DNA of 62,497 bases, counting the filler, from Sphacelaria rigidula (Eukaryota), in assembly GCA_964200075.2 (NCBI GenBank). It is 11 parts of 11 records of this genome, joined end to end, with 100 filler letters (N's around TTAATTAATTAA, not from the genome) between each part and the next. Parts side by side here need not be neighbours in the genome. Positions count along the whole stretch, not along the records: positions 51,218 to 56,807 come from CAXNAA020026051.1; 10 more parts are not named here. One strand, given 5' to 3'. Every line of letters begins with the position of its first letter. The stretch's first letter is position 1. Below, one piece after another: positions 5,592-57,008 of this stretch. Below the pieces are notes generated by a model. It saw nothing but the letters and a program-made list of their open reading frames with translations, had not been told where the DNA came from and ran no database searches. The position numbers were made by a program, and so were the translations under genes.

Positions 5592-5691
5592 NNNNNNNNN
5601 NNNNNNNNNNNNNNNNNNNNNNNNNNNNNNNNNNNTTAATTAATTAANNNNNNNNNNNNNNNNNNNNNNNNNNNNNNNNNNNNNNNNNNNN
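5592..5691. other. Artificial 100-bp contig linker (N44-TTAATTAATTAA-N44). Repeated at 11283, 16974, 22665, 28356, 34047, 39738, 45428, 51118 and 56808.
   Basis: Identical N-flanked six-frame-stop cassette recurring every 5691/5690 bp. Confidence 0.98.
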
Positions 5692-8900: not shown

Positions 8901-11382
8901 CAACACACAAGCGGCTACATTTTTGGCGACACCAATCCTTCATCTCACACACCAGCGTAACATCGTAGTTTCCCCCGCTCCTCTTCACCGTTTCCGTCGG
9001 CGGTACCACTGGGAAAGTAAAAACAAGGGCGAAAAAAAGACACTACGGTACCTCTCGCTCAACATAGGGGAGGCCCACGCTAGCCACTCGTACCGAAGCA
9101 CCCAAAAAATCGTCTCCTTTAGCCCCTGAATCGGTGTGAAGTGGTTTTGAGTAGGCGTTGGAAGCGTTGGCCTGCTTCCTTCACCGGAATTCAATATTGA
9201 CGCGTAACGCACACGATAAATCACCAAAGCGCACTCGCATGTAACAGCGAATATATGCGACAACAATGCCGACCGAAACCACACCTGCACAACCCGTAGC
9301 ACAAGCGCGATTACATACCCGAACCTTCGAGGACGCTACCGCCGTTGCCCGAACAAACCCAAGACAACAAAAATACCATCCTCGTTGTTGACATCACCTA
9401 GAAGCGGGGCGGTACCTCCAGACCTATACCTTCGCTCCTCTATCTAGGCGTGTCCTATATGGCCACCAGTGCACTGACACACACCACCCAGATAATCCTT
9501 CGCAAAATAAAATGGGACAGATGAGTGCTTCAGCGACCAGCCCCAATACTGTTGCGCGCGGACGATCGTGCTTGGTAACTTGTACGGGTGCGGCTCGGCC
9601 TACAAAATACCAATAAAACAAAAACAAAAAACAAGACCTGGAGGAATCGTAAAACCCGCCCCGCCCCATATGTTCCTTATTCGCCTATACGCCCTACCTG
9701 CCACATCAGGGTATACCACGACTGTGCACCCTATTCCCCCTCCCCCCCAAAGCACAAATTCTCACTTCCACCAACGACGATCACAAATCCCCTCCGCCAA
9801 ACATCTTCAGGCGAGCGTCTCCTTCCAGCGCAACTGGTGGAGGAAGGCTATGCATCCGCACAAGAGTGACACCTGCATTTCATTCCATCCCCATCAAATC
9901 ATGCTTATTTTGTGAGTGATTCGTGTGGGTCAAGCGTGCAAGTTGTGTGCGAGTAACCTTTTGCACCGGGCGAGCCGATACTGCCTTGTGCAAAATACCT
10001 TTGCACGTAAGGTTAACACATCAATTTCGCACATATATCACGGTACTAGCCCGCCTCCCCCACTCCATCAAGGAAGACTCTACATGCAACGACCGGGAAG
10101 AGGGTGCCGCGGGTTCTGTTCCTCACAGACTGTCGTTTTTCTTCATGACTTGGACATCTGGGCGAGGCGCTTCTTGATGAGCTTGTACTTTTGATATTCG
10201 CCCTCCACAGGGGCGATATCTTCCGGGCAGTTTACCTGCAGCATTTTTAGGGGAAAATCGGTCACGAAGACACGTTATGAAAACAAATTCAAGATCAACA
10301 TGAAACACAACATGCGGCACCACACAAGACACCAGCGAAGTACACGGAACCAACCCCACGACTCCGTCAGCGTCCGCGTCGCTAGTGAGACGTCAGTTAC
10401 GCGGAACTTTGGGGAAGAGCGGGCGGGGGGTTGAGCTGGTAGCTAGTTGACCCCATAGGGTGGAATTCATTCGACTTCATGATACTTCTGTAAGCGCCCA
10501 TCTAACTGGCACCGTATTCATTCTTATGCATTTGATGTTGCACCAGGCATTCAGATTTTGGGACGCGGAACGGTCAACATCCAACACCCGGAACAACAGT
10601 ACCGGCGCGCAACATGGCTCATCATCCATGTACCGACATGTTCGACAAAAGTCTGTTTTAAGGTTAAACTACATCAAACTTGCGCGCGATAAGACCCCTG
10701 CCCTGAAACACCGACACGAACGGAATACACCTGCACACATGAAGCAGCAGATTATACATGCGAATTTACGTACACGTTCACGCTACACTGTCACCGAACC
10801 CACGGTTAGTAACAGTTCGCAAGTGGGTCAAACCCCAACAACAACAAATAAACGTGATCGACGATGACTGGCAAAGCCTGCCAGAAAACTCGAAACAATG
10901 GCCGTGTCTCATCAGTTGTTTTCGACTTGAAAACTTGCTTTGGAATCGAATTCGCTCGTACCTGATGCCTCCACGGCCTTCATGTTCTCACCCATCTGAA
11001 AAAATGAAGGATGTGAACGGATCACATACAAGCGAATTCGATTCCACCGCACGTTTCCGACACGAAAACAATTCGGTATGACGGCCCAACACACACGCAA
11101 CATGACACCAAAAACCACAAGTCACCATACCCCTGGCGCCCACCCGCCCCCTCCCCGGCGCCCTCGCCATCTAACAGCTCAGGCATGCAAGTCAACGATG
11201 ACGCCCCCCACCCCCTCCGACGGTGCTCCGTCTCGAAAGGGATGCGTGGTCAATGGTCAAATGACTAAGGCAAGCAACAAATNNNNNNNNNNNNNNNNNN
11301 NNNNNNNNNNNNNNNNNNNNNNNNNNTTAATTAATTAANNNNNNNNNNNNNNNNNNNNNNNNNNNNNNNNNNNNNNNNNNNN

Positions 11383-16000: not shown

Positions 16001-18129
16001 ACAGCGTGGACATGATGCATGTGGGCAAGAAATACGTTGTTCATTTTACAAACGACACAACGCATCCAACACACCATGATATGGTGATGCTTTCGGTAGT
16101 GTCTAGACCTGTGTTCTGATCTTGACATAACAACAGCGGTACTGCAGCAGTTCAGGCAGTCCTCGGCGCAGATCAAACCGTATCTGCAGGGCGCCGCACT
16201 ACCTGTCAGCTACGGAACAGGAATGCTAGCTCTGCGCACCAAGGACCTTGTTCGTTGTGAAACATAAAACAAACACACACTGAAAAGCATTTCAAACTTC
16301 GACAAGACAGCACGTGTGTGCCGACAGCAGTTGTTCGTAAGACAAGAGCAATACAGCAGCTCAGATGATCCCAGCAGAGACCAGACAGTTTTGGCGTGGT
16401 CTGAACACACGAGTATACGGTGACAGGTGCAGCAAGCCTTCAGACCGCATGTTTTCGATCGAAAAGGCTTACCTGTCATGTTTTTTACAATTTCGCTGTT
16501 GCTTTTCCCATGATGAGAATGTGCTCAAGATGTAAGGATGTCCCCGCGCCCGACCTCGGTCTGATGACTGTCACACAGCCCTTTGGGTGCAAAGTCAGAG
16601 ATTCGACGGCCGATAAATACTGTCGTTGAGCAGGGACTGATTTCTGTCCTTGTGGTGCGGGGACGTGAGTACTAAAGAACATTTGAGAATGTTGACGCGG
16701 CACGAAAGTGCTAGCCCCATGTTTGGTACCCCAAGCTGTTGAGTATGTACCGGGAGGGGGGTGGTTCAATTGTTTGAGAAAACGGCCTCGTCCCTACGAC
16801 TGATAGGGATCCGTTTCGGCCGAAATAAATACATGAACAAGTACATAGCATCAAGTGAAGGAGAAGAGCGTGTCTGCAACATGGTCGCCGCGCAAGCCCC
16901 CGTTGTCAATAACCAACCCGCATCGCCATCCCTGCTTTCTTGCTGGATCAACCCGCGCTGACAACGGCAATGANNNNNNNNNNNNNNNNNNNNNNNNNNN
17001 NNNNNNNNNNNNNNNNNTTAATTAATTAANNNNNNNNNNNNNNNNNNNNNNNNNNNNNNNNNNNNNNNNNNNNGTGCCTCCTAAAACGCACTCGAAAACG
17101 TGCAGCTTTAGCTATTCATGTATTGACCCTCAGCATAGTACAGGAGAACATGACCATAGCCTCTCTCCATCAGAGGTCTATAGTACACGGGACAACGAAC
17201 CGCATCCGATTTGTCTTCGGGGCTGTGATGATCAGCCTTTCAGCTCCACGTTTTCGAGTGCGTTTTAGGAGGCACACTCGTTTTAATCATTTAAATACAC
17301 GTACGGGGCAGTTTCGATAACACCCACATGTGCGGAAGGACTCTAAAACAAGAAATGAAGCTGCCCGAAGTACAACATTGACGGGCCAGCCTTACGTGAA
17401 ACGCTATTTTCTCGGCTCGTGAATCAAGGCGTGAAGGACGGCTGAGACCATCCATCCACGTCGAGTATGCATTCTGTGACAGGGGTGGTGGAGATGGATG
17501 TGTCTTGATTTCGTTCGGTATTCTAGAAGTGATCAGGTTCCTGTTGGCTTTCCTTCCGGCTTTCGTGATGCCTGGCCACCTGCGGGCGGCGTTTGTTTGT
17601 GGGCTTCATCTACTGCCGACAGGGGTGCTTGCATGTGTGGAATCGAGTAAAATTAAAATGAAAGTGGATGAGGTAAAATCGAAAAGCAAAGCATATCGAC
17701 GAGCAAAACGCGAAAGTCAGGCAAAATCAATCGAACCCACGACCGAACCAAGTCGAAAAGCGAAACGAAATCAAACCATACCAAAGAGCACAACGCATCG
17801 AATCAAGCTTGACTCTCCGTTCGGCTGCTCCTTCCCGGCAGTTCTCCGGTGGCGCTGTGGAAAATCGGGGTGTGATGTATTTCAACGATGGTAGCCTCTT
17901 CGCTGACAACGCCGCCGGCTGCAACTGTGAGTTTGCCTCGGGTGGCGCGATCTACAACGAGAGGGGCGGGCAAATCACGTGAGTCCAGTATTTACTCCGA
18001 GTCAAAAAGCGTTTACGGCCATGCTTCATCCGCAACCACCCCTTTTGCGGATAAGAGCCCAATCATTGCTTTAAATCGAGTCTCCCTTGACCGCTGACGC
18101 ACTGGTGGCTGTAGTCACAACAGTGTGAC

Positions 18130-22390: not shown

Positions 22391-22764
22391 CATGTTTCTA
22401 CGTCAGGCGCTCGTGCGTGTCTGGAGAGGTGATACTTTTTTGTCCAGCGCCCCCCCCCCTCCCCTCTCCCCTAGCCTGGTCCGGTGAGAACCCGGCGTGC
22501 TCCGTCCCGGCCTTGTAGGGGCGGACCCCCGATGTGGTTGGCGTCGGTTGGCGGTGGCGCTATAAAACACGCCACTCACTGTGTAAGCTAGGCTATCAGG
22601 TTACCGTTGTTTTTTGCGCGCTTGCGTTTGTTTTGTGTAACCATGATGGTAGTCGAGCTAGATCNNNNNNNNNNNNNNNNNNNNNNNNNNNNNNNNNNNN
22701 NNNNNNNNTTAATTAATTAANNNNNNNNNNNNNNNNNNNNNNNNNNNNNNNNNNNNNNNNNNNN

Positions 22765-23870
22765 CGCCGTTCCTTTGCCGTTGCTGCTTCATGCAGTCGG
22801 CGTTGTCGTGGAGATGCGTTTTGTGGTAGCTGCACCACCAGTTGCTTCTCCGGCCAGATGTGGATGACGAGCCAGCGTCGCGATCGCGTTGCAGGATGAA
22901 ACAGGACGATTTGTTGTGTCCAGGCTTGTTGCAGTAATCGCACGTGCCCCGAAACGATGGAGTCGCAGTCATAGCGGACTCGCGCCCTTTTGTGCGCGAT
23001 GGCGCCGACAATTCGCCGCGCGCCACACGATTGGTGAACATGTTCCGAGCAGTGGTCTCGATCTCTTCGAGCGTCATCTCGGGGTCCCTCTCCGACGTAA
23101 AGCAAAGTGTCTCGTATTCACCAGTCAGGCCCTCGAGAATGAGGTCCTGCATGCGGACGTCCGATACGGGCTCGTTGATCTGTTCGAGCTCGTCGATCTG
23201 TTCGAGCTCGTCCCGCTTTTGATGCATGGCCAGGATGTACTCGTCCGGGTTTTGATTGGGCGCCACAAGATGCTGCTGGAGACCCCGCATCAAAATGCGC
23301 CGTCTTTGTGACGAAGAATTGAGGTATTTCTTGTTCAGAGCAATCCACGCAGCTTGGCCATTCGGCTTTTGGCCCTCGCGCGCGGCAAGGCTACTGACGA
23401 AGCTGTTGGCCTCTCCCTTGGTGGACAGCAGGAGGACGCTGAAGAGCTGCCTGTTGTAGCCATCCCAAGCGTCCAGATCTGTTTGGTTGCTGATCGTCGT
23501 ATCGGCGAACAGATCGTCGGTAGGGACCGTTGACGCGGGAATTTCCGCGGAGCGCCCGCTGGAGAGGCCACCCTCAGCTCCGCTGGCCTCGGTACCCCCG
23601 GTCCTCCCGGAGTCAGCGCTGGCGCCGGTGTCGCCCCCTGAGCCTCTCGTCCTGCGGATTGAAACGGCTGGGGTGGTCGCAGTCCTCTGCAGAGTCCTGT
23701 GCTCGCATGTGACGGCGGCTCGAGGCTTGCCGCCCAAATCCGAGAGATTTCGGGATGAAGAAGGTCAGCCGTTGCGCGGAGTGTCCTCCGCCACGGCACG
23801 AAGTGGTGACCATCGAACTTGCTGATACTCCTGATGATTGACTAGCCGCCGAAGTGGACTCTCCCATGAT
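22765..23870 (-). CDS. gag: Ty1/Copia gag (3' truncated by the contig end, 5' end apparently frameshifted)
   Basis: UBN2-type gag motifs (NRQLFSVLLLST, NGQAAWIALNKKY, PDEYI, LILEGLTGEY), CCHC knuckle CDYCNKPGHNKSSC and WCSYHKTHLHDNADC. Lies directly downstream of the LTR and PBS. Confidence 0.88.
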
Positions 23871-45351: not shown

Positions 45352-46843
45352 GGTGGCGGGCGGGGGGAGGGGGGGGGGGGGGGGGGTGGTTTTTGTTTGT
45401 GGTCTGGTTTTTTGGATGAGGGAACCCNNNNNNNNNNNNNNNNNNNNNNNNNNNNNNNNNNNNNNNNNNNNTTAATTAATTAANNNNNNNNNNNNNNNNN
45501 NNNNNNNNNNNNNNNNNNNNNNNNNNNGAGGTCAATGGTCTTGTGACTATGGCATGCATGATCATGAGTACACCCCCCTTCCCCGCCCCGACTCCGTGCG
45601 CGCGGACCAGCTCCGTGGTGTTCCGAGTGACCGCTACTCTCCGCACTACATCGCTCCCTACAACCCCGACGCAACATGCTTCACCTCAAGATCATCTGTA
45701 TCCTGTTACAAAATCTTGCAGGTTCATCCGAACATCATCAGCTTACCGTCTTTGTTCAAGTCCGATAAAGTGACGGAAATTACTAGTCCACTGACTTGAT
45801 GTCAGTGCTGATGACTGTGCCTAGATAGCTACGTGCTCAATACCGTTGTGCTGATATCAAATGGAGAAACCTCCATCGCTATTCAGCCGACTGGAACAAG
45901 AAATATATGCCCGTACTCTACAGCCATGATAGATCCACTGCAAACATTGTGACCGAAAATAGTCCATGCTGCGATTTACACAACGCACCGGTTCCCGCCC
46001 CTTCCGACCGAAAAATTGTCCCCGTTTTGCCCCCTTCGGAACGCTCTGAAAATCGGTCGAAGCGTCACTGAACAGCTCGAGTTCCAGTCCCGTCACTTTT
46101 GAAATGCTCGACCACCAATCATGGAGGTCGCACTCGGTAAAACCCATGTCATAACACATTGGAACGCGCACTCACACCAGTGATTTAAGTATGGGACAGC
46201 TAGCGTGTAATGGTACGCTAAAGCGCCCGGTACAGCCAGTGATAGAAGCATGGGACAGCTGGCGTGGAAAAATGCGCTGAAACGTGCGGCACAAGCAAAG
46301 ATCCGAGCTTGTCACACCCTAGGTCTGGGTGATACACTTTGCTGCTGCGTTGTCACCAAGCGGCCAGCGAGCAGACAGCCGTATCACCTCCTCTGCAGTA
46401 TGTCGAGGCAATCTACTTTGCAGAGCACCTCCTCGAATGCAAGTGCTTCCGCGCCTGCGTCGATCTGGATGAAGGGCACTGTCAAAGTTGAGACATTTTC
46501 CACTGCAGCTGATCTGAGAACACTATGTTCACCCAAATGCACTTCACGCAGTTTCCCTCACGTTCTGCTCGAAGTGGTCACCCACTCTGCTTCGAAGAAG
46601 GGCTTTTATACACATCTATTGTGACGGCGCACATGAGATCCGACCTGATGGTTACGAGGGCGTACTGAGGAATGCTTAACTTCTCTCGCGAAACAGTCGA
46701 AGGAAAACGATGCACAAATAAGGTGGGGGATCCCAGGGAGAGGGACCCCTCTGTTTATCTCGATTTTTCTGCCCCCCCCCCCCCCCCCCCGCCCACCATC
46801 CAATCCCCCGCTGACACCAAAAGAGTCCCGCAACAAGGCACAC

Positions 46844-46853
46844 NNNNNNNNNN
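46844..46853. other. Internal 10-N scaffold gap flanked by low-quality homopolymer sequence
   Basis: Read directly. Confidence 0.9.
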
Positions 46854-49800: not shown

Positions 49801-51548
49801 GCCCGTTCAATTCTTGATCGTCGCAAGTGCGTTCTTTTCGGTGCGTAGTATTGTTGTTCTGCAGTTACTTGTGTGTTGGAACTTGCCCAATTTCCTCGGA
49901 AAAGCACAGGAAGGAGGCCCAGATGTAAAGGGCAGTTGACTACAGCGTGTAAAAAGCAATATAGATGTACAGCTGGCGCACAATGTATGGACATAATCAG
50001 TGGTGGGTTTGCTAGTAGACCATTCGAATGCTGTTCGAAGTATGGACGGGTAACCTCACAGACGGCGGGATCCCGTTAGGATCTCCATTGCGGCAAGCGT
50101 ATCATATTCGTTACTTTTGGCTGATCGGTTGTTGCTCGCGCGTGAAAGTCAGGGCTGAGGACAATCGCTGTGTCGCACTTGATCGATTGATTGTCGCGCC
50201 TTACCTCATTCCCCAGGGATCCACTCGTGGTCACGAGATGAAAGCACCCGAGAATGAAGACAAAACGGAAGTACTGCTGAAGAAAAGTGAACAGAACGGA
50301 AAGATATAAGAGACGAAAAGAGAAGTCCATGAGCAAAGAAAAACGAAAAGGAAGAACAAAACAGAAACGGAGGCAGCAAAAGAAATATGAGAAACTAGCA
50401 ATAACCGGCCTCTGCGACATGACTTCAGTGGAGAAGGTCTTGCGCAAATGCTCTCTCACACCCAACCGTGAAAAACAAGAGCCGCGGGAATAGATTGCGG
50501 TTCATCATTTTCGACGATCACTATTTGGAGGTACGCAGCTCTCATCCATAAAACCTACGGAAGCAAGGGACCGAAGTGCTACACTTGTACACACCGGGAG
50601 AAAAGAACACGCATATATATAGAGAGAGATGGGGAAAGAAAGAGAGAACGGAGAAGAAAAAAGAGACTGCAACAGTGATGAAACCTAAAGGACAGCACAG
50701 TAGCGCAAGTATAAACACACATATTATCCAGAAACAGATTAAATAGGGTCGTGACGTACAGGCGACGGACAAAGAGGAGGTCCTGTAGTAGACAAGGTAT
50801 GAAAGGGTATATCCTAGTAATAGTATAATCGAGGAGGTAAAGCCGCAACCTCAAGGAGGAGCATGCCTTCACCGCCAGTTTTGTCTTTAGCGCTTAACTG
50901 TTCGTACTGGAGCCGTTGTTCGGCAATCCAAGAAGGTCCAGGGGGGACGTGAAAAAACACGACCGGTGTATTCCCTTCTTCAACACACGTGCTGAGCCCT
51001 CTCGTTTAGTGTACCCCCTTTTGAGTGGAGGCCTGTTTCTTGGAGGGGGGGGGGGGGGGGGGGGGGTACCCCCATTTTGACAATTGCCTTTTTTCAATTG
51101 TATTTTACTGGATTTCGNNNNNNNNNNNNNNNNNNNNNNNNNNNNNNNNNNNNNNNNNNNNTTAATTAATTAANNNNNNNNNNNNNNNNNNNNNNNNNNN
51201 NNNNNNNNNNNNNNNNNCTGTGCAAACACATGTGCGGGGTCGGGGGGGGGGGGGGGCTATCGTAGAAAGTGTCGGAATTCCCACGCTTAGGTTTGATTAT
51301 ATGGAGCGCGTCATGCAGCCTAAACCCAGACATCAGGCGCTGTATGTCCATTTTTTTCGTGACACTTTTGGGCTGGTTTCAGGGGGGGGGCTATCGTAGG
51401 AGGTGTCCACTTATTTCTTCCGGTGACCCCAGTGATGATCACCGCTTTGAAGTTAGTCGGGGTTGAATGATCCTTCGTCACTGATTGTCAGAAGCATATG
51501 ACAGATGATTCCTATCTATTGGCAAACACATATACCGAACAACTCCTG

Positions 51549-53938: not shown

Positions 53939-56395
53939 CTACCTCTCGCGCGGGCGGGATGAGGTCGTGGACACGCAAGGAGAGGGAGCAGACACGTCTA
54001 ACTCTAGCTTCACGTCACCCCCCTCCTCCTTAGACGTTTCATCAATGCCCGCTGCTACATCAACTATCGACTCCACCTGCACCGTCCGGCGTAGCCTCTT
54101 TGTGTTCCTTCCGCTGGCGATGCTCCTATCGCAGCTCTCATGTGTCTCATGTGTAGTGGTGCCGCGGGAGCCGCCATCGCTTATGCTGTCGCGACTGCTA
54201 GGTTGTGCAGTGACCAGCTCGCCGCTCTTTTTTTCCCCGTCGAAACCTCGTGGGGGCGCAACGGTCATCTCTATTTCACTTTTCATGCGTGGCTGTGCCC
54301 CATCCGGAGAAACTCCATCTGGGGTCGCTGGATCGGCGGGTTGTCTCGAGGCGACAGGCAACGTGGTCGGAGAATTCGCACCCCATCTCGTGGAAAGCAT
54401 GGCACGCGAGCTACAACAAAAGCTAGCGTTACAACAACCATCGTTTGCGTTGGGACCAGCGTCCGATGAATTGGTGGGTCTTCCCTCACGTTCATCGATA
54501 GTGACACCACTTTCTCCCACGACTGAGTCGTCGTTCCAGCGGTTCTTTTCTTGGACATGTGGTACATCAGACGCCATGGTCAGACAGTGTGCAGCATCAC
54601 GGCACGTACGCCGGTGCTCCCCCACCCGATCGAAATAGGGTTGCGAGACACGTTCACGGTCGTTCATGGATGTCAGTCCTACGCGGGCGGGCGTGGTACA
54701 GAACTTCGCCTCTCTGCCACCGGCCGCACCAAATGACGGATGCTTAGAGCATTCCTTGCCACAACGCTTGCTTCTGACGTTGACCATGCCTGCTTGAGAG
54801 CGTGTGGCGCAGAACTCCGCCTCCCTGCCACCGGTTACACAGAACAGTGCTTGTGTGAAGTAGCCTTCCTTGCCGCACAAGTTGCTTACTACGTCGACTG
54901 TGTCTGGCCAGGCGTGTGCGGGGCAAACCTTTGCCTTTCTGCCGCCGGTTGCAACGGGAGATGGTCGTGTGAAGCAGCCCTCTTCGCCGCCACGATTGCT
55001 CATCACGCCGACCATGTACGCCCGAGCGTGCGCGGCGCAGAACTCTGCCTTTCTGTGACTGGCTGCAACAAAAGATGGTTGTTTGGAGCAGCCCTCCTTT
55101 TGGCACCGCTTGCGAACTACGTTTACCGTGCCCGCAGCGGCATGTGTGGCGCAGAACTCTGCCTTCCCGCCACCGGCTGCACCGAACGATGGTGGGGTCG
55201 AGCAGCCCTCCTTTTGGCACCGCTTGCTAATTACGCCAACCATTTCCGCTGGAGCGTGCGCGGCGCAGAACTCTCCCCCCCTCCCACCGCCTTCTCCCAG
55301 AGATGGATGTTTGAAGCATCCCTCCTTGCCGCATCGCTTGCTTCTTACGTTGATCATGCCCGCTGGGGCGTGTGTGGCGCAGAACTTTGCCTTGCTGCCT
55401 CCGGCTACACCGAAAGACGGTTGTTTGGAGCATCCCTCCTTGCCGCATCTCTTGCTTCGTACGTCAACCATTCCCGCTGGGGCGTGCACGGCGCAGAACT
55501 CTGTCTTTCTACTACCAGCTGCACCGAACGTTGCTTGTTTGGAGCATCCCTCCTCGCCGCACTGCTTGCTTCGTACGTCAACCATGCCCGCTGGGGCGTG
55601 TTTGGCACAGAACTCTGCCTTCCTACCACCGGCTGCACCGAACGATGGTAGTGTTGAGCAACCCTCATCACCGCAGAGGCTGCTCACTACGTTCACCATG
55701 CCCGATGGGGCGTGTGTGGCACAGAACTCTGCCTTCCTACCACCGGCTGCACCGAAAGATGATCGGGTGGAGCATCCCTCCTTGCCGCACCGCTTGCTTC
55801 GTACGTTCACCATGCCCGCTGGGGCGTGTGTGGCGCAGAACTCTGCCCTCCTGCGACCGGCTGCACCGAAATTTGGTTTTTTGGAACACCCCTGCTCGCC
55901 GCAATGCCTGCTTCGTACGTCAACCATGCCCGCTGGGGCATGTGTGGCGCAGAACTCTGCGTTCCTGCTACCGGCTGCACCGAAAGATGGTTGTTTGGAG
56001 CACCCCCCCCAACCGCACCGCTTGCTAACTACGTCCACCATGCTTGCTGCGGCATGTGTGGCACAGAACTTTGCTTTTCCGCCACCGGCTGCAGCAAACT
56101 TTGGTCGTTTAGAGCAGCCCTTCTTGTCGCACCGCTTGCTAACTACGTTCACCATGCTTGCTGTGGCATGTGTGGCGCAGAATTCTGCTTTCCTGCCACC
56201 GGCTGAACCGAAATATGGTCGTGTGGAGCAGCCCTCCTTACCGCAGTGGCTCCTCGATACATTAACCATGCCCGCTGGGGCGTGTGTGGCGCAAATCTCT
56301 GCCTTTCTGCCACCGGCTGCACCGAAAAATGGTCGTTTAAAGGAACCCCTCTTCCCACACAGCTCGCCAATCCAGCTCAAGCCTGCACCAATCAC
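53939..56395 (-). CDS. EsV-1-7 cysteine-rich repeat protein: 15 tandem 38-aa C-x4-C-x16-C-x2-H repeats plus a low-complexity tail
   Basis: 818-aa ORF with consensus CGKEGCSKQPSFGAAGGRKAEFCATHAPAGMVDVRSKR, matching the EsV-1-7 family of brown algae and their viruses. True start and stop may lie in other exons (possible tgcag acceptor near 56383, possible GT donor near 53942). Confidence 0.92.
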   Translation of the reverse strand: MIGAGLSWIGELCGKRGSFKRPFFGAAGGRKAEICATHAPAGMVNVSRSHCGKEGCSTRPYFGSAGGRKAEFCATHATASMVNVVSKRCDKKGCSKRPKFAAAGGGKAKFCATHAAASMVDVVSKRCGWGGCSKQPSFGAAGSRNAEFCATHAPAGMVDVRSRHCGEQGCSKKPNFGAAGRRRAEFCATHAPAGMVNVRSKRCGKEGCSTRSSFGAAGGRKAEFCATHAPSGMVNVVSSLCGDEGCSTLPSFGAAGGRKAEFCAKHAPAGMVDVRSKQCGEEGCSKQATFGAAGSRKTEFCAVHAPAGMVDVRSKRCGKEGCSKQPSFGVAGGSKAKFCATHAPAGMINVRSKRCGKEGCFKHPSLGEGGGRGGEFCAAHAPAEMVGVISKRCQKEGCSTPPSFGAAGGGKAEFCATHAAAGTVNVVRKRCQKEGCSKQPSFVAASHRKAEFCAAHARAYMVGVMSNRGGEEGCFTRPSPVATGGRKAKVCPAHAWPDTVDVVSNLCGKEGYFTQALFCVTGGREAEFCATRSQAGMVNVRSKRCGKECSKHPSFGAAGGREAKFCTTPARVGLTSMNDRERVSQPYFDRVGEHRRTCRDAAHCLTMASDVPHVQEKNRWNDDSVVGESGVTIDEREGRPTNSSDAGPNANDGCCNASFCCSSRAMLSTRWGANSPTTLPVASRQPADPATPDGVSPDGAQPRMKSEIEMTVAPPRGFDGEKKSGELVTAQPSSRDSISDGGSRGTTTHETHESCDRSIASGRNTKRLRRTVQVESIVDVAAGIDETSKEEGGDVKLELDVSAPSPCVSTTSSRPRER

Positions 56396-57008
56396 GCAGC
56401 AAAGACAACCGTATATTGTGACTGAAACACTGTATGTGAAGCGTCAATTTGGTATCCCGGTCAAAAACAGGTACGTTGACTAGAGTGGACTCACAAGTCC
56501 TATCGTGGAGTGCGCAGGCGACAACGATAGCAAACGGAGCACGGTCGCCACAGGGGGAATGACCTCTTCATGATGATAATCGTAGTCTCGAGATTGTTGC
56601 TGCCATGCCCGGGCGACTGAACAAAGGAAGTGATGTTGAACACCGAACATGCGTAAAAGTCCTTTGGGTCGACGGCGCTGGTATGGCTTCTCCACTTGTA
56701 ATATTTCAAGGTTTGGACGACTCATCGCAGCTAGAAAAATAGAGGAGTAAACAACAAATTGTGCGAATAGAGGTTTAACTCCGAGATGAGGTTCAAGCCT
56801 AAAACAGNNNNNNNNNNNNNNNNNNNNNNNNNNNNNNNNNNNNNNNNNNNNTTAATTAATTAANNNNNNNNNNNNNNNNNNNNNNNNNNNNNNNNNNNNN
56901 NNNNNNNGAGTTCGAAGCGGTTTGGGTTTTTTTTTTTGGGGGTGGTTGGGGGGGGGGGGGGGGGGGGGGGGGGTCAGTATGCTGGATGAAGCTGCACCTA
57001 TTGTGATG

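What the first reader, a model, noticed from the sequence alone, without database searches (positions are those of the whole stretch)
54655..56359. EsV-1-7 array looks like a modular, code-bearing recognition array
Seen: 15 head-to-tail units of 114 bp/38 aa (the last about 37 aa) in one uninterrupted frame. The scaffold (C..EGC, FG..G..KAEFCA.HA..GMV.V) is well conserved. Variation concentrates in the four residues after GC(S/F), in order: KRPF, TRPY, KRPK, KQPS, KKPN, TRSS, TLPS, KQAT, KQPS, KHPS, TPPS, KQPS, TRPS, TQAL, KHPS. A second variable patch is the linker before the next Cys (SRSH, VSKR, RSRH, VSSL, RSKQ, ISKR, VRKR, MSNR). Established: EsV-1-7 repeats occur in Ectocarpus virus EsV-1 and in an expanded brown-algal family that includes the developmental regulator IMMEDIATE UPRIGHT; I know of no defined ligand or code. 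Inference: each C3H unit binds zinc, and the variable R/K/Q/H/N/S positions specify bases. That would make it a programmable nucleic-acid reader analogous to C2H2 fingers, TALEs or PPRs.
Basis: partly seen in the sequence, partly recalled or inferred. Interest (0 to 1): 0.78.

Follow-up and report, generated by a model that had tools for sequence, protein, structure and literature searches.

The report
Brown-algal EsV-1-7 zinc-repeat array gene
This is an ordinary member of the large brown-algal EsV-1-7 cysteine-rich repeat family, with 15 tandem zinc-finger-like units and an acidic tail, and nothing here shows that its variable residues form a base-reading code.

Summary
A minus-strand ORF (53939-56395, 818 codons) carries 15 head-to-tail 38-aa units (TRF period 114; Pfam PF19114, 15 stretches, E 4.8e-181).

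It belongs to the known, greatly expanded brown-algal EsV-1-7 family. The closest named relatives are from Sphacelaria rigidula. Eleven of 15 units keep the C-x4-C-x16-C-x2-H ligand set. The array is very basic (net +50) and the 236-aa tail is acidic and lineage-specific.

The "code" reading is not supported:
- The two named patches hold 31% of the positional entropy, against 21% expected.
- Within the array they show no significant excess of non-synonymous change (Fisher p 0.12-0.36).
- Family-wide, variation spreads over about 14 surface positions.
- No small discrete residue alphabet exists.
- Units have no one-to-one counterparts in the nearest homologue, except the last unit.

Nucleic-acid or chromatin binding remains the likeliest function. 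The evidence is the charge, the conserved basic linker, the same ligand spacing as SBP zinc site 1, and fusions to a transposase, DOT1 and a USP. The zinc-finger transcription-factor idea is already in print. Interest is low to moderate.

The parts
53939..56395 (-). Open reading frame of 818 codons (P0001), holding the array and a C-terminal tail. The first codon is GTG. The first in-frame ATG is codon 43 (56267-56269), at Met31 of unit 1.
   Evidence: The next longest ORF in the window outside the repeat is 342 aa. None of 2000 shuffles of the tail stayed open in frame.
56246..56359 (-). Unit 1 of the array. It is degenerate, with Ser at the Cys6 position.
54992..56245 (-). Units 2-12: eleven 38-aa units with the full C-x4-C-x16-C-x2-H set.
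   Evidence: unit HMM scores 67-77 bits each; Pfam PF19114.
54653..54991 (-). Units 13-15, degenerate. Unit 13 lacks Cys1. Unit 14 lacks Cys6 and His26. Unit 15 has a one-codon deletion and Pro at His26.
   Evidence: 30-48 bits. Unit 15 is 81% identical to the last unit of the Sphacelaria rigidula protein P0008, with the same deletion and the same His-to-Pro change.
53942..54652 (-). Non-repeat C-terminal tail. The 236 residues analysed (583-818) are acidic (net -7, pI 5.3) and match no Pfam family.
   Evidence: The tail is 70% identical to the tail of P0008. 24 cluster representatives match it at E<=0.001.
53939..53941 (-). Stop codon of the ORF.
56480..56725 (-). Upstream ATG-started 81-codon ORF in the same frame as the array, separated from it by two stops. 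GTGAGT (donor-like) lies at 56489-56494. It is a candidate 5' exon, but I found no clean splice solution. No Pfam match.
   Evidence: This is inference only; there are no RNA data.
56808..56907 (.). Artificial spacer (N44 + TTAATTAATTAA + N44) marking the upstream end of the array's contig. The matching spacer at 51118-51217 marks the downstream end.

Best explanation

Shown:
- 15 tandem 38-aa units sit in one frame, 11 with the full C-x4-C-x16-C-x2-H set.
- The coding sequence is under purifying selection that is strongest at the ligand and core positions.
- The array is very basic, with an acidic non-repeat tail shared with Sphacelaria proteins.

Inferred:
- Each intact unit folds on its own around one metal ion, most likely zinc. 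The fold is a small knuckle plus beta-hairpin module, and the units are joined by a conserved basic linker (x-S-K-R).
- The chain of basic modules binds a polyanion, most likely DNA or chromatin (possibly RNA), and the acidic tail acts as the effector or partner-binding part. This is the behaviour of a zinc-finger transcription-type regulator, the role proposed in print for the family.
- Any specificity would come from many exposed positions (2-4, 7, 9, 11, 14, 25, 28, 29, 35, 36), not from a four-residue code.
- In this subfamily the array changes length quickly and loses ligands near the tail, so constraint on individual units looks weak.
For: Membership and anatomy:
- PF19114, 15 stretches, 586.7 bits; period 114, no indels.
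- Of 121 proteins (the query and its 120 listed homologues), 858 motif matches were found, with unit spacing mostly 38 aa (388 of the spacings) or 37 aa (184).
- The best named relatives are Sphacelaria rigidula and Ectocarpus.

Metal site:
- C1 is kept in 455/455 units, C6 in 454/457, C23 in 454/457.
- H26 is kept in 445/457, with 9 His-to-Cys swaps.

Selection:
- Pairwise dN/dS is 0.41 over all units.
- It is 0.03-0.07 at 11 ligand and core positions.

Real gene rather than noise:
- 818 open codons, and 0 of 2000 shuffled tails stayed open.
- The tail is 70% identical to a Sphacelaria protein.
- 24 representatives share the tail.

Autonomous modules:
- AlphaFold2 gives pLDDT 83.5 and pTM 0.58 for one unit.
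- For four units it gives pLDDT 83.8 but pTM 0.44.
- Only short beta bridges appear, at unit positions 12-13, 22 and 32-33.

Polyanion binding:
- The array has K46 + R43 against D9 + E30, net +50, pI 9.6. The tail is net -7, pI 5.3.
- Family units average +2.7 net charge, and 88% are positive.
- Positions 37 and 38 are basic in about 91-92% of family units.

DNA or chromatin link:
- The ligand spacing equals zinc site 1 of the DNA-binding SBP domain, CX4CX16CX2H (passage in bioRxiv 10.1101/2021.08.22.457055).
- 20 of 43 four-unit segments match PF03110 positions 1-36 at E<=1, best 4.4e-05, all below the gathering score.
- A Tc1/mariner transposase carries an N-terminal EsV-1-7 domain (passage in PMC12477816).
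- Predicted fusions exist to DOT1 and to a USP/DUSP/MYND deubiquitinase.

Unit-specific constraint elsewhere in the family:
- In four collinear homologue groups, corresponding units differ at 17-35% of positions. Different units of one protein differ at 53-62%.
- Positions 7-13 vary among units but are relatively conserved between homologues (ratio 0.15-0.47). The ratio is 0.54-0.82 at positions 2-4, 14, 25 and 29.
Against: - No binding of metal, DNA, RNA or protein was tested, and none is reported for any family member in the papers I saw.
- No RNA evidence exists for this locus. The runs found behave like DNA, so transcription is unknown.
- There is no in-frame ATG before unit 1, and the contig ends 412 bp upstream.
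- 4 of 15 units lack a ligand. Ligand loss next to the tail recurs in the other subfamily members, as expected for weak constraint or decay.
- The SBP similarity is below Pfam's threshold, and cysteine-rich sequences attract spurious profile hits. CxC6, Rieske and multi-haem families were also hit.
- The DOT1 and USP fusions are two gene models that may be mis-joined.
- In the homologue test I kept 4 of 8 groups. Between-homologue and among-unit variability are strongly correlated overall (Spearman 0.81), as a plain rate model also predicts.
Confidence: 0.5

Rival explanations
1. One reading: each unit reads a fixed number of bases through the residues at positions 8-11 (and the linker). The array would then be a programmable reader like C2H2 fingers, TALEs or PPRs.
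For: - The architecture is modular, with identical unit length and a conserved linker.
- Position 9 is mostly Arg or Gln family-wide: R 128, Q 110, H 34, K 24, N 24 of 457. Position 11 is mostly Ser, Thr or Asn. These side chains often read bases.
- Family-wide entropy alternates high-low along positions 7-12 (3.59, 2.59, 3.35, 1.07, 2.94, 1.33 bits). An extended strand with 7, 9 and 11 on one exposed face would give this pattern.
- Positions 7-13 are better conserved between collinear homologues than other variable positions.
- Pairwise dN/dS at positions 9+11 is 1.4-1.7.
Against: - There is no significant excess of non-synonymous change: 9+11 p 0.36, 8-11 p 0.20, 35-38 p 0.12.
- Positions 8 and 10 are among the less variable ones.
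- Positions 28, 25, 36, 3 and 14 vary as much as position 9 in brown-algal units.
- There are 118 distinct 9/11 pairs and 268 distinct 8-11 strings in 457 units, so no small alphabet. Neither position appears among the 20 strongest co-varying pairs.
- In this array, KQPS occurs three times and KHPS twice.
- Units other than the last have no one-to-one match in the nearest homologue.
- The subfamily's arrays range from 2 to 15 units.
- Inter-unit geometry is not confidently predicted (pTM 0.44).
Confidence: 0.08
2. The array is a protein-protein interaction scaffold, as many LIM, RING-like, MYM or B-box zinc modules are, or it binds another polyanion of brown algae such as sulfated or carboxylated polysaccharide. 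It would not bind nucleic acid.
For: - Variation spreads over many surface positions.
- Array turnover is rapid.
- One fusion partner is a ubiquitin-system enzyme.
Against: - The strong positive charge and the conserved Lys-Arg linker fit backbone contacts with nucleic acid better.
- The transposase and DOT1 fusions point to DNA or chromatin.
- No signal peptide or secretory feature was seen. I did not run a dedicated predictor.
Confidence: 0.22
3. This particular copy is a decaying or non-functional paralogue of a young, fast-turning-over subfamily. The array is a recent expansion with little or no function of its own.
For: - 4 of 15 units lack a ligand.
- There is no ATG ahead of unit 1.
- The stored gene call for this sequence (P0124, 358 aa) covers only units 13-15 and the tail.
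- Ligand loss is frequent in all subfamily members.
- Intact units are all close to one consensus, 53-79% identical to each other.
- Family members in Ectocarpus behave like young genes: high tissue specificity and a peripheral place in expression networks (passage in bioRxiv 10.64898/2026.04.27.720984).
Against: - The frame stays open for 818 codons, and 0 of 2000 shuffled tails stayed open.
- dN/dS is 0.41 overall and 0.03 at ligand and core positions of units 2-12.
- The degenerate last unit is conserved in the same degenerate form in a Sphacelaria protein (81%). That loss is therefore old and tolerated, not ongoing decay.
- The tail is conserved at 70% identity.
Confidence: 0.15
4. The units are metal-sensing, redox or metal-buffering modules (copper as well as zinc), not recognition modules.
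For: - Met31 is nearly invariant (437 of 457 units).
- C23-x2-H26-x4-M31 has the spacing of the copper loop of plastocyanins, to which the unit profile aligns locally (E 0.8-1.8).
- PF00127 was matched by 3 of 43 segments at E<=1.
- From my recall, not from a call: some SBP-domain regulators are copper sensors.
Against: - The plastocyanin matches are not significant and cover only a 23-residue loop.
- Four conserved Cys/His ligands already complete a zinc site.
- No data link the family to metal homeostasis. The one studied member (IMM) is a developmental regulator.
Confidence: 0.05

Closest known systems
EsV-1-7 domain family (Pfam PF19114), which includes Ectocarpus IMMEDIATE UPRIGHT and the EsV-1 virus gene EsV-1-7
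   Same: The repeat unit, ligand pattern and tandem arrangement are the same. The taxon is a brown alga. Like all Ectocarpus members, it has no other Pfam domain.
   Different: It has 15 units, against five in IMM according to the passage. Its non-repeat part is a C-terminal acidic tail, found here only in a Sphacelaria-type subfamily, whereas IMM is defined by a unique N-terminal domain. Four units have lost a ligand.
SBP (SQUAMOSA promoter-binding protein) DNA-binding domain, zinc site 1 (Pfam PF03110)
   Same: The ligand spacing is identical, C-x4-C-x16-C-x2-H, with an occasional Cys at the fourth place. There are local profile matches to SBP positions 1-36.
Tandem C2H2 zinc-finger arrays (for example KRAB zinc-finger proteins), as a functional analogue
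   Same: Many short metal-binding units sit head to tail with a conserved linker. The gene family is large and lineage-specific, and array length changes quickly.
   Different: The fold differs, with no recognition helix predicted. No defined specificity positions, no known ligand and no binding data exist.
Zinc-binding domain of nidovirus helicases (nsp13; Pfam PF20632) and RING domains
   Different: None of it is significant. Those domains bind two or three metal ions in interleaved sites, whereas the unit has four ligands for one ion.
WRKY19-type zinc finger (Pfam PF24906)
   Same: It shares the start of the motif. Whole-protein scores above the cut-off occur inside EsV-1-7 arrays of P0018 (35.3 bits) and P0122 (41.6 bits), and 16 of 43 segments match at E<=1.
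   Different: The model is only 24 positions long, and just its first 10-13 align. Its function is also unknown to me.

Membership tests
EsV-1-7 cysteine-rich repeat family (PF19114) | Match to the Pfam model above its gathering score | tested here: met
   586.7 bits against a cut-off of 25, with 15 stretches.
EsV-1-7 cysteine-rich repeat family (PF19114) | Conserved Cys-x4-Cys-x16-Cys-x2-His pattern in each repeat | tested here: met
   Present in 11 of 15 units; units 1, 13, 14 and 15 each lack one or two ligands.
EsV-1-7 cysteine-rich repeat family (PF19114) | Tandem repeats of about 37-39 residues | tested here: met
   Period 114 bp with no indels. Homologues have spacings of 38 (388), 37 (184) and 39 (59).
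EsV-1-7 cysteine-rich repeat family (PF19114) | Metal (zinc) binding by the repeat | not testable with these tools
   Supported only by ligand conservation. No coordinates or metal assay were available.
IMMEDIATE UPRIGHT orthologue | The unique N-terminal domain of IMM followed by five repeats (criterion quoted) | not tested
   I held no IMM sequence. The ORF has no N-terminal non-repeat part, and the contig ends 412 bp upstream. With 15 repeats and a C-terminal tail, orthology is unlikely.
Programmable modular nucleic-acid readers (C2H2, TALE, PPR, PUF type) | Tandem units of fixed length | tested here: met
Programmable modular nucleic-acid readers (C2H2, TALE, PPR, PUF type) | A few specificity positions that carry the variation, with an excess of non-synonymous change | tested here: not met
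   The two named patches hold 31% of the entropy against 21% expected (arithmetic). Fisher p is 0.36, 0.20 and 0.12. Family-wide the shares are 12.3% and 9.7%. The test has low power, with 15 units.
Programmable modular nucleic-acid readers (C2H2, TALE, PPR, PUF type) | A small recurrent alphabet of specificity residues | tested here: not met
   118 distinct pairs at positions 9/11 and 268 distinct strings at 8-11 in 457 units. The commonest pair, RS, occurs 56 times.
Programmable modular nucleic-acid readers (C2H2, TALE, PPR, PUF type) | Unit identities conserved between orthologues | tested here: inconclusive
   Seen in 4 collinear homologue groups from metagenomes. Not seen between this protein and P0008, except for the last unit. 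No true orthologue with DNA was available.
Programmable modular nucleic-acid readers (C2H2, TALE, PPR, PUF type) | Variable residues on one face, and sequence-specific binding with a fixed step per unit | not testable with these tools
No nucleic-acid co-folding or binding assay was possible.
SBP domain (PF03110) | Match above Pfam's gathering score | tested here: not met
   17.4 and 21.5 bits against a cut-off of 27.
SBP domain (PF03110) | First zinc site C-x4-C-x16-C-x2-H | tested here: met
   One search gives the spacing here; the passage gives the SBP spacing.
SBP domain (PF03110) | [quoted passage not shown] | tested here: not met
   The profile match stops at position 36 of 75. The unit sequence after His26 has no further Cys or His ligands.

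The most novel reading that the evidence does not exclude
EsV-1-7 arrays are a new class of modular, sequence-reading zinc-finger arrays. Each 38-aa unit would present an exposed ridge (positions 7, 9 and 11, perhaps with 28 and 35) to a fixed step of DNA or RNA. The huge, fast-turning-over brown-algal family, with copies fused to a transposase and to chromatin enzymes, would have expanded the way KRAB zinc-finger genes did in vertebrates, tracking transposons and integrated giant-virus DNA.
Probability: 0.08. Interest if true: 0.85.

Novelty: new member of a known kind. Interest (0 to 1): 0.3.

Why it matters
EsV-1-7 proteins form the largest gene family of brown algae and include a developmental regulator, yet no biochemical function is known for the domain.

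This locus is not special within that family. It does offer a long, regular array: 11 intact, near-consensus units in one exon, which would be a convenient substrate for the first metal-binding and nucleic-acid-binding tests of the domain.

The comparisons made here narrow what such tests should look for:
- a basic chain of autonomous Cys3His modules;
- a conserved Lys-Arg linker;
- the same ligand spacing as SBP zinc site 1;
- an unexplained invariant methionine.

They also show that sequence variation alone gives no evidence for a four-residue code.

Tried and rejected
- **Whole genome:** I used 120 homologous proteins instead.
- **RNA evidence:** no RNA holder was listed. The four runs laid are contigs with flat cover over the non-coding flank, so they look like DNA. 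They gave no usable splice joints, and the joints listed lie between repeat units.
- **PDB sequence searches:** the two profiles found only non-significant matches.
- **ESM Atlas:** no usable hit.
- **Viral contigs:** the alignment query was not searchable. The single-protein query found no relative.
- **Earlier findings of the scan:** none by words, sequence or place.
- **Macaisne et al. 2017:** not held under its DOI or PubMed id. What I say of it comes from other papers' passages.
- **First all-against-all BLAST:** it timed out and was repeated with faster settings.
- one regular expression had the wrong spacing. It was corrected. The charge figures are not affected.
- **Homologue-versus-unit test:** I made 8 groups and pooled 4. 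I dropped the P0033 group and P0063/P0084 because between-homologue difference was about equal to among-unit difference. I dropped the P0097 group because its members were nearly identical. P0001/P0008 was treated separately.
- **Block-permutation test:** a test of how amino-acid differences are shared among positions was not run. I replaced it with arithmetic and with the tree-based counts.
- **Splice model:** I found no solution joining the upstream ATG ORF to the array with a consensus donor in the right phase.
- **Rfam:** no match in the window.
- **Other ORFs on the contig:** none has a Pfam match.
Full report
**What is in the sequence**

Tandem Repeats Finder reports one array at 54685-56333: period 114, 14.5 copies, 75% matches, no indels, score 1385. 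It lies inside a minus-strand open frame, 53939..56395, of 818 codons. Cut in 38-residue register from residue 13, the protein gives 15 units. Unit 1 starts at 56359. Unit 15 starts at 54763 and is one residue short.

Pfam's EsV_1_7_cys model (PF19114) matches 15 stretches at 586.7 bits against a cut-off of 25. A unit HMM run over all six frames finds these 15 units and nothing else in the window.

The qualification is that only units 2-12 (11 of 15) keep all four putative ligands. Units 1, 13, 14 and 15 have lost one or two.

**The window is not one piece of chromosome**

Runs of N44 + TTAATTAATTAA + N44 recur every 5,691 bases. They begin at 5592, 11283, 16974, 22665, 28356, 34047, 39738, 45428, 51118 and 56808. 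The window is therefore 11 pieces of 5,590-5,591 bases placed end to end, as one would get from length-sorted short contigs.

The array's real contig is 51218-56807. The other ORFs of the window are not its neighbours. On that contig no other ORF has a Pfam match, and Rfam finds nothing in the window. No whole genome is held.

**Which organism and which family**

Of 206 proteins matched at E<=0.001, the best named ones are from Sphacelaria rigidula (up to 66% identity) and Ectocarpus. Green algae and many unnamed metagenome proteins follow. ORFs are sparse (19 of 150 aa or more in 62 kb, several of them antisense to the repeat), which suits a eukaryote. I take the source to be a brown alga close to Sphacelaria.

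From the literature passages I read:
- EsV-1-7 proteins number 31-54 in the sister taxa and up to 335 in a brown alga, often in tandem gene clusters. [quoted passage not shown]
- They form the largest orthogroup across brown algae and carry no other Pfam domain in Ectocarpus. They are tissue-specific, peripheral in expression networks and favoured in unicellular stages (bioRxiv 10.64898/2026.04.27.720984).
[quoted passage not shown] The term 'EsV-1-7' occurs in 11 held papers, and I read passages in 6 of them. None names a ligand. The founding paper (Macaisne et al. 2017) is not held.

**The gene**

The frame is open for 818 codons, and none of 2000 shuffles of the tail stayed open. After the array come 236 residues with no Pfam match. 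They are 70% identical to the C-terminal part of the S. rigidula protein P0008, which aligns with P0001 from residue 309 to the end at 65% identity.

A search of 1.84 billion cluster representatives with the tail alone finds 24 proteins at E<=0.001, 7 of them at E<=1e-30. One, P0124 (358 aa), is identical to residues 461-818, so a shorter gene call for this sequence is on record. The tail thus defines a subfamily. Its members have 2 to 7 detected units, against 15 here.

In 10 of the 11 library members with an array, the first unit starts at residue 9. For the two N-termini I printed (P0008 and P0124), the model begins at the conserved Met31 of a preceding unit. Here too there is no ATG ahead of unit 1. 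The first ATG is Met31 of unit 1 (codon 43).

An 81-codon ATG ORF lies upstream in the same frame, with a GTGAGT after codon 77. I found no acceptor in the right phase. The 5' end is unresolved, and the contig ends 412 bases upstream.

Public runs that hold the stretch behave like DNA and say nothing on expression. They do reproduce most of the sequence without differences.

**Selection**

Pairwise Nei-Gojobori estimates among the 15 units:

| Positions | dN/dS, all 15 units | dN/dS, units 2-12 |
|---|---|---|
| All 38 | 0.41 | 0.41 |
| 11 ligand and core positions | 0.07 | 0.03 |
| 9+11 | 1.44 | 1.70 |
| 8-11 | 0.98 | 1.29 |
| 35-38 (linker) | 0.59 | 0.43 |

The high values rest on two to four codons that were picked because they vary.

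Counting changes on a neighbour-joining tree of the units by parsimony gives N 14.8 / S 6.2 at positions 9+11, against 143.4 / 94.6 elsewhere (Fisher p 0.36). The p-values are 0.20 for positions 8-11 and 0.12 for the linker. There is thus clear purifying selection on the scaffold. There is no demonstrable positional excess of non-synonymous change, though the test has little power with 15 units.

**Where the variation lies**

In this array the entropy ranking is 9, 35, 28, 11, 38, 33, 37. Positions 8 and 10 are low.

In 54 units of 14 named brown-algal proteins, the most variable positions are 36, 28, 25, 9, 35, 3 and 14. The patches hold 13.0% and 13.6%.

I analysed 457 units of 114 homologues. 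These are the 470 of 875 HMM hits that had at most one gap, less the 13 from this protein. In them:
- C1, C6, C23, H26 and M31 are nearly invariant.
- G5, P10, F/Y12, G16, F/Y22, V32, D/N33, V34, K37 and R38 are conserved.
- Fourteen positions (2, 3, 4, 7, 9, 14, 15, 17, 18, 21, 24, 25, 28, 29) exceed 3 bits.
- The patches hold 12.3% and 9.7% of the entropy.

Position 9 is consistently variable and is mostly Arg, Gln, His, Lys or Asn. Position 11 is mostly Ser, Thr or Asn. Entropy alternates high-low along positions 7-12, which would put 7, 9 and 11 on one side of an extended strand. That is inference; I could not read model coordinates.

There is no small alphabet: 118 distinct 9/11 pairs and 268 distinct 8-11 strings in 457 units. 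Neither position is among the 20 most strongly co-varying pairs, which instead mark subfamilies.

**Are units individually conserved?**

I made eight groups of collinear homologues. In four groups of unnamed proteins (12 proteins), corresponding units differ at 17-35% of positions, while different units of the same protein differ at 53-62%. In those lineages units do keep identities.

Pooling these four groups, between-homologue and among-unit variability correlate across positions (Spearman 0.81). The ratio between them is lower at positions 7-13 (0.15-0.47) than at positions 2-4, 14, 25 and 29 (0.54-0.82). This is what unit-specific constraint on the segment after Cys6 would give.

I left out four groups. 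In two, the two measures were about equal. One was nearly identical throughout. The fourth was P0001/P0008, treated separately.

For this locus the picture is different. Against P0008, only the last unit has a clear partner: 81% identity against at most 59% for the other P0001 units, with the same deletion and the same His-to-Pro change. The intact units are all near one consensus and match P0008's first units about equally.

In every subfamily member examined, units near the tail have lost Cys or His residues. The array is therefore young or homogenised. It is variable in length, and individual units are loosely constrained.

**Structure**

AlphaFold2 on four units with a 43-row alignment gives mean pLDDT 83.8 and pTM 0.44. 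On one unit with flanks and a 58-row alignment it gives pLDDT 83.5 and pTM 0.58. Both show only short beta bridges at unit positions 12-13, 22 and 32-33, and no helix.

This fits autonomous small modules whose mutual arrangement is not fixed. Isolated C2H2 arrays commonly behave this way too, but that is my recall.

**What it most likely does**

- **Charge.** The array carries 46 Lys and 43 Arg against 9 Asp and 30 Glu (net +50, pI 9.6). The tail is acidic, net -7, pI 5.3. Family units average +2.7, and 88% are positive. The linker positions 37 and 38 are basic in about nine of ten units.
- **SBP spacing.** The ligand spacing is that of zinc site 1 of the plant SBP DNA-binding domain, CX4CX16CX2H, including the occasional Cys at the fourth place (passage in bioRxiv 10.1101/2021.08.22.457055). 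SBP profile positions 1-36 match 20 of 43 four-unit segments at E<=1, best 4.4e-05, all below Pfam's gathering score.
[quoted passage not shown] From general knowledge, the N-terminus is where such transposases carry their DNA-binding part.
- **Enzyme fusions.** Two long predicted proteins join the repeats to a DOT1 histone methyltransferase domain and to a USP/DUSP/MYND deubiquitinase. They may be mis-joined gene models.

Taken together, a chain of zinc modules that binds DNA or chromatin, with the acidic tail as effector, is the best-supported mechanism. I put it at about one half. A protein-binding scaffold, a decaying copy and a metal-sensing role are the rivals.

**An unexplained detail**

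Met31 is kept in 437 of 457 units and is almost never replaced by another hydrophobic residue. The stretch C23-x2-H26-x4-M31-V aligns locally, without significance (E 0.8-1.8), with the copper loop of plastocyanins. The Met also places an in-frame ATG in every unit.

**Verdict**

The zinc-finger reading is reasonable and already published as a hypothesis. The 'programmable code' is not supported by any test I could run here, and three tests go against it:
- no significant positional excess of non-synonymous change;
- no small alphabet;
- no unit-to-unit conservation at this locus.

One family-level result is compatible with it: the relative conservation of positions 7-13 between homologues. 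It remains an open idea, testable by experiment, and I give it a probability of about 0.08.

Noticed in passing
window 5592-5691, 11283-11382, 16974-17073, 22665-22764, 28356-28455, 34047-34146, 39738-39837, 45428-45527, 51118-51217, 56808-56907: There are ten identical spacers (N44 + TTAATTAATTAA + N44) at a step of about 5,691 bases. The window is 11 pieces of 5,590-5,591 bases joined artificially, so genes in different pieces are not physically linked. A separate run of 10 N lies at 46844-46853.
   Followed up: yes
window 23057-23356 (-), within ORF 22709..23737: A weak match to the copia-type gag model PF14223 (26 bits, just under the cut-off of 27). It is probably a retrotransposon fragment on another piece of the window.
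   Followed up: no
window 56719-56800 and 56948-56973: The last 80 bases of the array's contig have an enormous summed contig depth in the DNA runs (up to about 800,000 against 47-64 nearby), so the contig ends in a highly repeated sequence. The next piece of the window begins near a run of 26 G.
   Followed up: no
unit position 31, e.g. window 56267-56269 and every 114 bases downstream: A nearly invariant Met (437 of 457 family units) sits in a C-x2-H-x4-M arrangement that aligns locally, without significance, with the copper loop of plastocyanins. It also gives every unit an in-frame ATG.
   Followed up: partly
proteins P0008, P0022, P0124-P0144 (tail subfamily): In 10 of 11 library members with an array, the first unit starts at residue 9. 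The two N-termini I printed begin at Met31 of a unit. This suggests that gene models, or real starts, use the repeat's own Met. Units next to the tail often lack Cys or His ligands.
   Followed up: partly
proteins P0122 (2055 aa) and P0123 (1456 aa): These are predicted fusions of EsV-1-7 arrays. P0122 joins one to a USP/DUSP/MYND deubiquitinase, and P0123 joins one to a DOT1 histone methyltransferase domain. They may be mis-joined gene models.
   Followed up: partly
window 54740-56483 (+): Long antisense ORFs (466, 303, 218 and 126 aa) run through the repeat on the plus strand. They are expected from a stop-poor repeat, and I did not test them against family libraries or for conservation.
   Followed up: no
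window 54721-56385: Hundreds of short contigs at 95-99% identity from the DNA runs pile up on the repeat (247 to 1256 records laid per run). This suggests that many closely similar EsV-1-7 units exist elsewhere in the same genome. Summed depth is not a copy number.
   Followed up: no
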